DNA of 56,758 bases from a virus (taxonomy: Duplodnaviria; Caudoviricetes), in the IMG/VR virus record IMGVR_UViG_3300046824_000124, positions 1-56,758 of that record. One strand, written 5' to 3'. The notes under the pieces were generated by a model that had not been told where the DNA came from, did no database searches, and saw nothing but the letters and a program-made list of their open reading frames with translations. Shown here one piece after another: positions 6,509-7,020 of this stretch; position 1 is the stretch's first letter; every line of letters begins with the position of its first letter. Made by a program: the position numbers and the translations under genes.

Positions 6509-7020
6509 ACCCGCGCGAGGCGCGGCGAGGCATGGCAGTGTCATGTCGGGTCGGGCAAGTCAGGATAAGCCCGTGAGGGCGCAAGGTGGAGCGTGGCTTG
6601 GCATGGTTAGGTCTGTTTCTGCCTGTTACGGAATGATGGCTGGTTCCCAGCCCACCGGGGAGCAATCCCCGGATGGCTGCGATGGCAGCGCGCGGCCAGG
6701 TGAGTCGAGGCGAGGTTGGGTGAGGTTTGTTGTGGCGAGCTACGGCAGAGGACGACAGCCCGTGAGGGCGCAGGGCCAGGCTTGTCTATGTAGCGCGTCG
6801 TTCGGTCGGGTCTGGTACGTCATGGATGGCTGGTTCTCAGCCCCCCCGCTCCTTCGGGGGCGGGATGGCTGCGAAGGCAGCGCGAGGTGGGGTCGGGTCG
6901 CGCGGGGTTTGGTTGGGCTATGTACGGCTGGGCAAGGAACAATAGCCCGTGAGGGCGCAAGGTAGCGCAAGGTAAGGTTAGGCGGGGCCCGTTCAGGTCG
7001 GGTTTTGCCCGGTTTTGATT
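6509..7020 (+). ncRNA. Array of six GGY-NN pentamer tracts separated by conserved hairpin linkers (putative guide RNA array)
   Basis: Tracts at 6514-6568, 6585-6634, 6689-6748, 6774-6823, 6881-6940, 6961-7015; linker A GCCCGTGAGGGC at 6569, 6758, 6945; three-hairpin linker B at 6635-6690 and 6825-6882. Confidence 0.8.

What the first reader, a model, noticed from the sequence alone, without database searches (positions are those of the whole stretch)
6569..6960. Two alternating structured linkers (A-B-A-B-A) with compensatory changes punctuate the array
Seen: linker A is GCCC-GTGA-GGGC-GCA (GNRA tetraloop), identical at 6569, 6758 and 6945. Linker B (6635-6690 and 6825-6882) has three hairpins: GGCTG/CAGCC, a middle stem, and GCTGC/GCAGC. 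The middle stem changes sequence but keeps pairing (CCGGGGA-GCAA-TCCCCGG versus CCCGCTCC-TTCG-GGGGCGGG) and swaps a GNRA loop for a UNCG loop. The higher-order period is ~188 nt with two tracts per unit. Inference: selection acts on RNA structure on the plus strand; the linkers may be processing sites or caps, and the working unit may be a two-tract (paired) guide.
Basis: partly seen in the sequence, partly recalled or inferred. Interest (0 to 1): 0.82.

Follow-up and report, generated by a model that had tools for sequence, protein, structure and literature searches.

The report
Guide-RNA tails in a phage VIPR array
The two alternating "linkers" are most likely the conserved structured ends that separate six guide RNAs in a phage-encoded VIPR array, a recently described CRISPR-like system, here in an unusual form with two kinds of end.

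Summary
Linker A occurs three times without a change (6569, 6758, 6945). Linker B occurs twice (6635-6693, 6825-6885) with near-identical flanks and a middle hairpin that differs in sequence but still pairs (GNRA versus UNCG loop).

The array is not an unknown element. The gene upstream (5858-6508) matches the solved SUSP1 Vipr protein (E 4.5e-14), folds like Cas7/Csm3, and keeps the published GGY-binding residues. The G/T-rich tracts repeat GG every 5 nt, in blocks of 10-12 units. This is a VIPR (Viral Interference Programmable Repeat) locus, described in 2026 preprints: vipr, a vrRNA array, and an accessory gene (7050-7562).

Published vrRNAs are 9-16 GGY/NN repeats capped by an invariant structured 3' tail. 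Linkers A and B fit that role.

Two features look unusual:
- Two tail types alternate, with no spacer between guides.
- The relatives I could fetch with the same accessory gene mostly use hairpin-free "staggered" arrays.

A contig from another metagenome lacks exactly one A-to-A unit (189 nt).

Not shown: RNA ends, covariation across homologues (no homologue of B was found), and DNA targets. The "paired two-tract guide" idea has no support.

The parts
5858..6508 (+). vipr gene (RAMP protein, 216 aa from the ATG at 5858; the open frame reaches back to a GTG at 5717)
   Evidence: A profile of 35 family members hits PDB 36pp_D 'SUSP1 Vipr protein' at E 4.5e-14. The protein alone hits it at E 1.1e-6, with YRP and GxGDWR aligned. 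AF2 pLDDT is 91.8. Top Foldseek hits are Csm3/Cas7 at E 5e-7. The start at 5858 is chosen by family length and the GAAGGAGG upstream of it.
6519..6568 (+). tract T0: 10 pentamer units, starting 11 nt after the vipr stop. Its last 2-3 units are conserved before every linker A.
6569..6583 (+). linker A, copy 1 (4-bp hairpin with a GTGA loop, then GCA): proposed short vrRNA tail
6585..6634 (+). tract T1: 10 units
6635..6693 (+). linker B, copy 1: conserved flanks, middle 7-bp stem with a GCAA loop: proposed long vrRNA tail
6694..6753 (+). tract T2: 12 units
6758..6772 (+). linker A, copy 2
6774..6823 (+). tract T3: 10 units. An eleventh unit runs into linker B.
6825..6885 (+). linker B, copy 2: same flanks, middle 8-bp stem (one G-U) with a TTCG loop
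6886..6940 (+). tract T4: 11 units
6945..6959 (+). linker A, copy 3
6961..7015 (+). tract T5: up to 11 units with no A or B tail. It contains a terminator-like hairpin at 6981-7009 followed by a T-run.
7050..7562 (+). accessory gene next to vipr (170 aa, phrog_15946, 'FEWDD' motif): presumed vap
   Evidence: phrog hit. At least 558 metagenome relatives. It sits next to vipr homologues and repeat arrays. AF2 pLDDT is 86.9, with only weak winged-helix-like fold matches at Z 5-6. It is not similar to SUSP1 vap1.
6568..6756 (+). 189-nt unit (linker A + T1 + linker B + T2, in whichever register within the shared 16 nt) that is absent from a contig of another metagenome run
   Evidence: table 5: X3 record 14 joins 6567 to 6757. 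The parts it covers have 0 other letters, and 16 letters fit either side of the joint.

Best explanation
The intergenic region 6509-7049 is the vrRNA array of a phage VIPR system (vipr 5858-6508, array, accessory gene 7050-7562).

The array is read on the + strand. It holds six tracts of about 10-12 degenerate GGYNN units. By homology with the studied SUSP1 system, one Vipr protomer binds each unit. It flips out the GGY and presents the NN pairs, which read double-stranded DNA with one base skipped after every two. The filament then silences the target, presumably in a competing mobile element.

Linkers A and B are the invariant structured tails that end each guide and cap the filament. Because guides abut with no spacer or promoter between them, the tails also mark where a precursor transcript would be cut or trimmed. 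Two tail types alternate: a short GNRA hairpin (A) and a roughly 59-nt multi-hairpin element (B). The middle hairpin of B needs only to be a stable stem-loop, which explains its free change of sequence with pairing kept.

Shown here: family membership, repeat anatomy, strand, conservation pattern, and a natural gain or loss of one A-to-A unit.
Inferred: transcription, tail function, 3' rather than 5' placement, processing, and targets.
For: Vipr membership.
- Profile hit to the solved SUSP1 Vipr at E 4.5e-14 over 184 of 209 profile positions.
- Counterparts of all five published RNA-contact residues (H17, R138, D177, W178, R179; cryo-EM preprint section 5) are present.
- Cas7/Csm3 fold: 115 Foldseek matches at E <= 0.001.

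Repeat code.
- GG autocorrelation is 2.0-2.2 at lags 5, 10 and 15, against about 1 in the coding control.
- Tracts have 10-12 units, and 40 of 65 units are canonical GGY. The preprint reports 9-16 repeats and frequent internal degeneracy.

Module in other loci.
- Arrays lie on the gene strand in 59 of 88 loci and on the other strand in 1 of 88.
- In 53 of 88 loci an array lies near the accessory gene, by my criterion of starting within 250 nt after its stop or ending within 120 nt before its start.
- A vipr homologue sits beside it in 50 of 88 loci.
- Terminators follow arrays in L007, L010 and L015.

Tails.
- Published vrRNAs end in an invariant structured 3' tail that caps the RNA.
- Here the tails are near-identical while the tracts between them differ.
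- The last units before each tail are conserved in a tail-specific way.
- T0 starts with no tail before it.
- The middle stem of B keeps pairing through changes on both sides.
- The first hairpin of B (GCTGG, loop, CCAGC) recurs at the 3' end of arrays in L007, L088 and Mycobacterium phage Saal.

Other.
- No sigma-70-like promoter in 5500-7700.
- A variant lacking one A-to-A unit exists.
Against: - No RNA data: no listed run is on record as RNA, so transcription, ends and processing are not shown.
- No homologue of linker A or B was found in 64 sources (304,620 bases) with a covariance model, nor by exact motif in the loci. Structure conservation therefore rests on two or three copies in one locus.
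- Linker A does not vary and folds no better than shuffles.
- T5 has no A or B tail.
- Only 62% of units are canonical GGY.
- No convincing DNA target. Self-matches equal shuffled controls. Two of three exact 1-nt-skip scans of IMG/VR found nothing. The third found one sequence in a 32% GC phage, an unlikely co-infector of a host of a phage that is about 57-73% GC across 5500-8000.
- The accessory protein is unrelated to SUSP1 vap1. I could not place it among the published vap1-6 or assign a VIPR type, because the supplements are closed.
Confidence: 0.82

Rival explanations
1. The linkers are generic RNA-stability or termination elements rather than Vipr-specific tails. Linker B would be a copy of an 'array end' (terminal hairpin plus a terminator-like stable tetraloop hairpin without its U-run). 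It would block 3' exonucleases or pause or terminate transcription. Linker A would be a small nuclease stop.
For: The first hairpin of B resembles the hairpin that ends arrays in L007, L088 and phage Saal. In L007 and L088 a strong hairpin or terminator follows it. The middle hairpin changes sequence freely and carries extra-stable GNRA or UNCG loops. That fits a requirement for stability alone.
Against: No T-run follows either B copy, and the scan lists no terminator there. The flanks of B and the 14 nt before A are conserved in sequence, not just in structure, which suggests specific recognition. This reading overlaps the main one: a cap can also stabilise.
Confidence: 0.25
2. Linker B (or A plus B) is a self-cleaving ribozyme of an undescribed class that cuts the precursor. 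This would parallel the hammerhead-interspersed VIPR arrays reported for types I and V.
For: The discovery preprint reports ribozyme-interspersed arrays (legend of fig. S19). B is a compact multi-helix element placed exactly between guides.
Against: No Rfam family matches at gathering score in the window. No ribozyme appears among the 6 weak matches up to E 10 in 6450-7100. B is almost all helix, with junctions of 0-3 nt and no conserved unpaired core. A is only 15 nt.
Confidence: 0.06
3. The linkers act in DNA: binding sites for the winged-helix-like accessory protein, or recombination sites that shuffle guide cassettes, with RNA structure incidental.
For: The accessory protein has weak winged-helix-like fold matches. 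A variant lacking exactly one A-to-A unit exists, with its joint inside the shared 16 nt.
Against: Paired changes that keep the B middle stem, including a G-U that pairs only on the + strand, point to RNA. Loss of a unit between identical repeats needs no dedicated site. The fold matches are at Z 5-6, below the level the tool calls meaningful.
Confidence: 0.06

Closest known systems
Type II VIPR array of Escherichia phage SUSP1 (vrRNA = GGY/NN repeats plus a pseudoknot 3' tail)
   Same: - A Vipr RAMP protein with the same GGY-contact residues.
- Pentamer repeat tracts of similar length.
- An invariant structured element after each tract.
- A two-gene locus in a phage.
   Different: - The accessory protein is unrelated.
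- By eye, the SUSP1 tails share no sequence with A or B; I made no formal comparison.
- By eye, SUSP1 vrRNAs are separated by about 40 nt of A/T-rich spacer, whereas here guides abut.
- Here two tail types alternate.
- Here the tails are hairpins, and no pseudoknot was looked for.
'Staggered' VIPR arrays (vrRNAs overlapping by 1 nt; discovery preprint fig. S18 legend)
   Same: The vipr and accessory-gene families are the same as in the window. Near-perfect GGCNN arrays in L019, L048, L073, L096 and Mycobacterium phage Saal are broken every 8-17 units by a 4-nt step. Equating these with the published staggered arrays is my inference from the legend.
   Different: Those arrays have no hairpins between guides. 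The window has structured linkers and more degenerate units.
Hammerhead-ribozyme-interspersed VIPR arrays (types I and V)
   Same: Structured RNA placed between adjacent vrRNAs.
   Different: No hammerhead or other Rfam ribozyme match here.
CRISPR arrays with Cas6-type repeat hairpins (crRNA handles)
   Same: Variable guides alternate with conserved, often hairpin-forming repeats that become handles. Units are lost by recombination between repeats. The effector is a RAMP. This comparison draws on the preprints and on general knowledge.
   Different: The guide is a gapped code inside pentamer repeats, not a contiguous spacer. No cas1/cas2 or Cas6 gene lies nearby. Two different 'repeats' alternate.

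Membership tests
VIPR system | A Vipr protein (minimal RAMP: RRM core, thumb, G-loop) encoded at the locus | tested here: met
   Profile against PDB 36pp_D at E 4.5e-14. Single sequence at E 1.1e-6. AF2 model at pLDDT 91.8, with Csm3/Cas7 top hits at E 5e-7 and TM 0.5-0.57.
VIPR system | Residues that hold the GGY motif (SUSP1 H17, R138, D177, W178, R179) | tested here: met
   The aligned counterparts are H in PLITHRF, R in AYRPVF, and DWR in GIGDWR. The residue list comes from the cryo-EM preprint, section 5.
VIPR system | Intergenic tandem pentamer repeats (GGY/NN), 9-16 per vrRNA, on the gene strand | tested here: met
   GG autocorrelation peaks at multiples of 5. Six tracts of 10-12 units, with 40 of 65 units canonical GGY. 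Strand bias across loci is 59 of 88 against 1 of 88.
VIPR system | Conserved GGY with hypervariable NN | tested here: inconclusive
   Tracts differ while tails are conserved between the two 188-nt units. There are no close homologous arrays in which to measure variability position by position.
VIPR system | An invariant structured tail after each repeat tract | tested here: met
   A occurs 3 times identically and B twice. B folds at z -2.3 and -1.8. Whether the tails are 3' parts of the mature RNAs is not shown.
VIPR system | An accessory (vap) gene beside vipr | tested here: inconclusive
   A conserved neighbour gene is present. It is unrelated to SUSP1 vap1, and its identity with any published vap2-6 could not be checked because the supplements are closed.
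VIPR system | Viral or proviral genome | tested here: met
   The window is an IMG/VR virus record with a terminase and a portal gene.
VIPR system | vrRNAs are expressed, about 100 nt long, and bound by Vipr | not testable with these tools
   No RNA data could be laid on the stretch.
VIPR system | NN dinucleotides match a DNA target with a 1-nt skip | tested here: inconclusive
   No self-match above shuffled controls. Of three exact scans of IMG/VR, one gave a doubtful hit and two gave none. The published method accepts matches of 80% or more, which I could not run on a collection.
Hammerhead (or other Rfam) self-cleaving ribozyme | A match to the family covariance model | tested here: not met
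   0 matches at gathering score in the window. No ribozyme among the matches up to E 10 in 6450-7100.

The most novel reading that the evidence does not exclude
This is an undescribed VIPR array architecture. Guides abut directly and are delimited by two alternating tail classes, which would define two functionally different kinds of vrRNP. For example, the tails might mediate pairing of neighbouring filaments; the cryo-EM preprint saw two SUSP1 filaments touching at their 3' ends. Or they might direct different processing or loading routes. The architecture would have arisen within a Vipr clade that otherwise uses hairpin-free staggered arrays.
Probability: 0.15. Interest if true: 0.65.

Novelty: new variant of a known kind. 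Interest (0 to 1): 0.5.

Why it matters
VIPR is a newly reported family of RNA-guided DNA-recognition systems, proposed to predate CRISPR. In what I read of the three preprints, the tail is described only for the SUSP1 clade, as a roughly 40-nt pseudoknot.

This locus suggests a tail can be as small as a 15-nt hairpin or as large as a 59-nt multi-hairpin element. It also suggests that two kinds can serve one Vipr protein in one array, and that guides can be packed end to end without their own promoters.

If confirmed, this would narrow what a Vipr filament needs at its end and how precursors are cut. It would also offer a compact natural design for multi-guide arrays. The missing A-to-A unit in another sample shows how such arrays gain or lose guides.

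Tried and rejected
Readings held before the Vipr hit and then dropped:
- A ring-shaped RNA-binding protein reading triplet repeats, by analogy with TRAP. The 5-nt period prompted this. The Vipr match replaced it.
- DNA iterons, a pac site or an origin. The strand lock of the arrays (59 of 88 loci against 1 of 88) and terminators after arrays argue against this.
- A Shine-Dalgarno-like sponge, or two-tetrad G-quadruplexes. Neither was tested further.
- Coding sequence. ORF 6363-6965 has no family hit, and the repeat spacings of 189 and 187 nt cannot both keep one reading frame.
- tRNA or tmRNA: none found. Rfam: none.

Searches for close relatives that could give covariation:
- Phage records, by DNA: no match.
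- IMG/VR, by the accessory protein: 8 loci at 31-58% identity. By Vipr: none. By a linker pattern: none.
- Metagenome contigs: 80 loci kept, best segment 26-60% identity.
- Genome contigs: 4 loci at 33-57% identity.
- Two accessory proteins 70% identical to the window's exist in the protein collection (P0002, P0003).
- Covariance model of B: only the two window copies match (E about 1e-14). The next best matches are the reverse strand of B itself (E 0.3) and L099 (E 0.93).
- By inspection of the interruptions in the arrays of the window and 94 loci, only the window shows the same hairpin linker recurring. This was a listing, not a formal test.

Targets:
- Self-matches of the six guides in the window reach at most 73% of NN positions at the published 1-nt skip (at most 77% at any skip length tried, 0-3). 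That equals shuffled guides.
- IMG/VR exact scans: T2 (10 units) gave L100 and L101. These are identical in the 119 nt around the match and come from contigs of 32% GC. The skipped bases fall on third codon positions there, but the host mismatch makes chance likely.
- T4 (9 units) and T3 (9 units): no hit.

RNA evidence: no RNA holder was listed. The three runs laid are DNA contigs.

Structure of the accessory protein: Foldseek found nothing at E <= 0.001. VIA-align gave only Z 5-6 rows, some of them winged-helix proteins.

Literature: four searches found nothing before the PDB hit led to 'Vipr'. I read the following.
- Discovery preprint: outline, Results, Discussion, one method section, and passages.
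- Cryo-EM preprint: outline, section 5, and passages.
- Third preprint: passages only.

Full report
WHAT IS THERE

The region 6509-7049 lies between two + strand genes of a virus record: an IMG/VR record of 56,758 nt with terminase and portal genes.

Linker A (15 nt) is exact at 6569, 6758 and 6945, and nowhere else in the window with fewer than 2 mismatches. Spacing is 189 and 187 nt.

Linker B (6635-6693 and 6825-6885) has near-identical flanks: 18 of 20 and 17 of 19 positions. Its middle 20-22 nt differ in sequence but form a perfect 7-bp stem with a GCAA loop in one copy and an 8-bp stem with a TTCG loop in the other. Shuffles of these middle parts reach a stem of 7 bp or more in 66 and 1,710 of 20,000 trials.

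Three cautions apply. Linker A never varies, and its small hairpin is no more stable than shuffles. The outer helices of B are invariant and can form either three hairpins or one nested hairpin at nearly equal energy. The whole-region fold is not better than shuffles on either strand.

WHAT THE ARRAY IS

The tracts between the linkers are G/T-rich, with a strong 5-nt periodicity of GG. Autocorrelation is about 2.0-2.2 at lags 5, 10 and 15, against about 1 in the neighbouring coding sequence.

Distant homologues of the downstream gene (7050-7562, phrog_15946) turned out to sit next to the same kind of period-5 array in other viral contigs. A scan of metagenome contigs found at least 558 loci, of which 80 were kept.

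Across 88 loci:
- 59 have a period-5 array on the gene strand, and 1 has one on the opposite strand.
- In 53 an array lies near that gene, starting within 250 nt after its stop or ending within 120 nt before its start.
- In 50 a second conserved gene, the family of window 5858-6508, lies just upstream.

Several arrays end in intrinsic terminators on the gene strand. The module is also present in the cultured Mycobacterium phage Saal and in cyanophage Cy-LDV1, whose record is a third-party assembly.

A profile of the upstream gene family hits one solved structure, 'SUSP1 Vipr protein' (36pp), at E 4.5e-14. That led to three 2026 preprints on VIPR systems.

According to the parts I read:
- A VIPR locus has a vipr gene (a minimal RAMP), usually one accessory vap gene, and vrRNAs of 9-16 YNNGG repeats followed by an invariant structured 3' tail.
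- One Vipr protomer binds each repeat, flips out the GGY, and presents the NN pairs.
- The NN pairs read double-stranded DNA with one base skipped after every two.
- The complex silences transcription of competing phages or satellites.

The window's protein fits. Its AF2 model (pLDDT 91.8) matches Csm3/Cas7 subunits (E 5e-7; 115 matches at E <= 0.001). It carries counterparts of all five published GGY-contact residues.

The six tracts have 10-12 units each, and 40 of 65 units are canonical GGY. The preprint notes frequent internal degeneracy.

WHAT THE LINKERS ARE

In this frame, A and B occupy the place of the vrRNA tail. The supporting points:
- Tails are conserved while tracts differ.
- The last two or three units before each tail are conserved in a tail-specific way.
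- The first tract starts 11 nt after the vipr stop with no tail before it.
- No promoter-like site lies in the region, and guides abut. A precursor would therefore have to be cut or trimmed at or near the tails.
- The middle hairpin of B behaves as an element that only needs to be a stable stem-loop. Its G-U pair works only on the + strand.
- The first hairpin of B (GCTGG, loop, CCAGC) recurs at the 3' end of arrays in L007, L088 and phage Saal. These were 3 of the 15 matches to that motif in 101 loci, and a fourth is B copy 1 of the window itself, in L001. Part of B is therefore older than this lineage.

No known ribozyme matches.

WHAT IS UNUSUAL

The relatives I inspected that carry the same accessory gene mostly have hairpin-free arrays in which a 4-nt step interrupts the pentamers every 8-17 units. 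I equate these with the preprint's 'staggered' arrays, from a figure legend only.

Only the window has recurring hairpin linkers, and two kinds that alternate (by inspection). The accessory protein is unrelated to SUSP1 vap1. It shows only weak winged-helix-like fold matches.

I could not assign a VIPR type or check whether a two-tail array is drawn in the supplements, which are closed.

A NATURAL VARIANT

Contigs of three DNA metagenome runs hold this sequence. One run may be the window's source.

In run X3, from another study, a 707-nt contig follows the window without a difference from 6020 to 6567. It then continues at 6757, skipping 189 nt, with 16 letters that fit either side of the joint. 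This form lacks one A-to-A unit, which is two guides and one B.

I read it as a real array-length variant, for this reason: the shared stretch is 16 nt, and by my recollection that is shorter than the words Logan's assembler uses, so an assembly collapse is unlikely. This is an inference. The contig has low depth (3.6).

The variant shows that the roughly 188-nt period is a unit of gain or loss. It says nothing on whether two tracts work together.

WHAT IS NOT SHOWN

- No RNA holder was listed, so transcription and RNA ends are untested.
- No close homologue of the locus could be fetched.
- No convincing target was found.
- Whether the tails are 3' (as in SUSP1) or 5' parts of the mature RNAs rests on analogy and on T0 lacking an upstream tail. 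T5 equally lacks a downstream one and runs into a terminator-like hairpin.

VERDICT

The paired-guide idea is unsupported.

The element belongs to a known, very recently described kind (VIPR). The alternating two-tail, spacer-free architecture is a variant that I did not find in the main texts I read.

Confidence is 0.82 that the array is a VIPR array and the linkers are vrRNA tails. Interest is 0.5.

Noticed in passing
L019 2150-2940; L048 530-1330; L073 696-1399; L096 1790-2230; L091 (Mycobacterium phage Saal) 970-1225: Near-perfect GGCNN arrays up to 830 nt long. A 4-nt step (GGCA then GGC) occurs every 8-17 units. In Saal the blocks are 11 pentamers plus GGCA, 59 nt in all. These probably correspond to the 'staggered' arrays of the preprint.
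   Followed up: partly
L007 544-561; L088 3186-3202; L091 1213-1226; window 6639-6651: A hairpin with the fixed stem GCTGG/CCAGC and variable loops closes arrays in distant VIPR loci and forms the first hairpin of linker B. In Saal it overlaps the annotated start of gene 51, so that start may be called too early.
   Followed up: partly
window 6568-6756 versus run X3: A contig from another metagenome study lacks exactly this 189-nt unit and is otherwise identical over the parts it covers.
   Followed up: partly
L100 7999-8027 and L101 3758-3786: The T2 guide pattern (10 NN pairs, 1-nt skip) matches exactly in a 32% GC viral sequence present in two contigs. The skipped bases fall on third codon positions of an acidic stretch. 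Chance is likely, given the G+C mismatch.
   Followed up: partly
window 4840-5532: A phage gene with a Vut_1 (YhhQ-like vitamin or queuosine-precursor transporter) domain lies just upstream of the VIPR locus. DNA methyltransferases sit at 3514-4464 and 8802-10637, the latter fused to a ParB-like domain.
   Followed up: no
window 5555-5618, minus strand: A G-rich stretch that my period-5 detector flagged on the opposite strand. By eye it has no clear GGYNN register, and it lies within open reading frames on both strands. I took it as a chance hit.
   Followed up: partly
L090 (Gordonia phage UmaThurman genes 39 and 41): This phage has homologues of both vipr and the accessory gene, with an extra gene between them. 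I saw no obvious period-5 array in the two short flanks I read.
   Followed up: no
L092 (cyanophage Cy-LDV1) 2240-2440 and 3040-3190: Two arrays flank the accessory gene (g33), one between g34 (vipr homologue) and g33 and one after g33. Both genes are annotated as hypothetical proteins.
   Followed up: no
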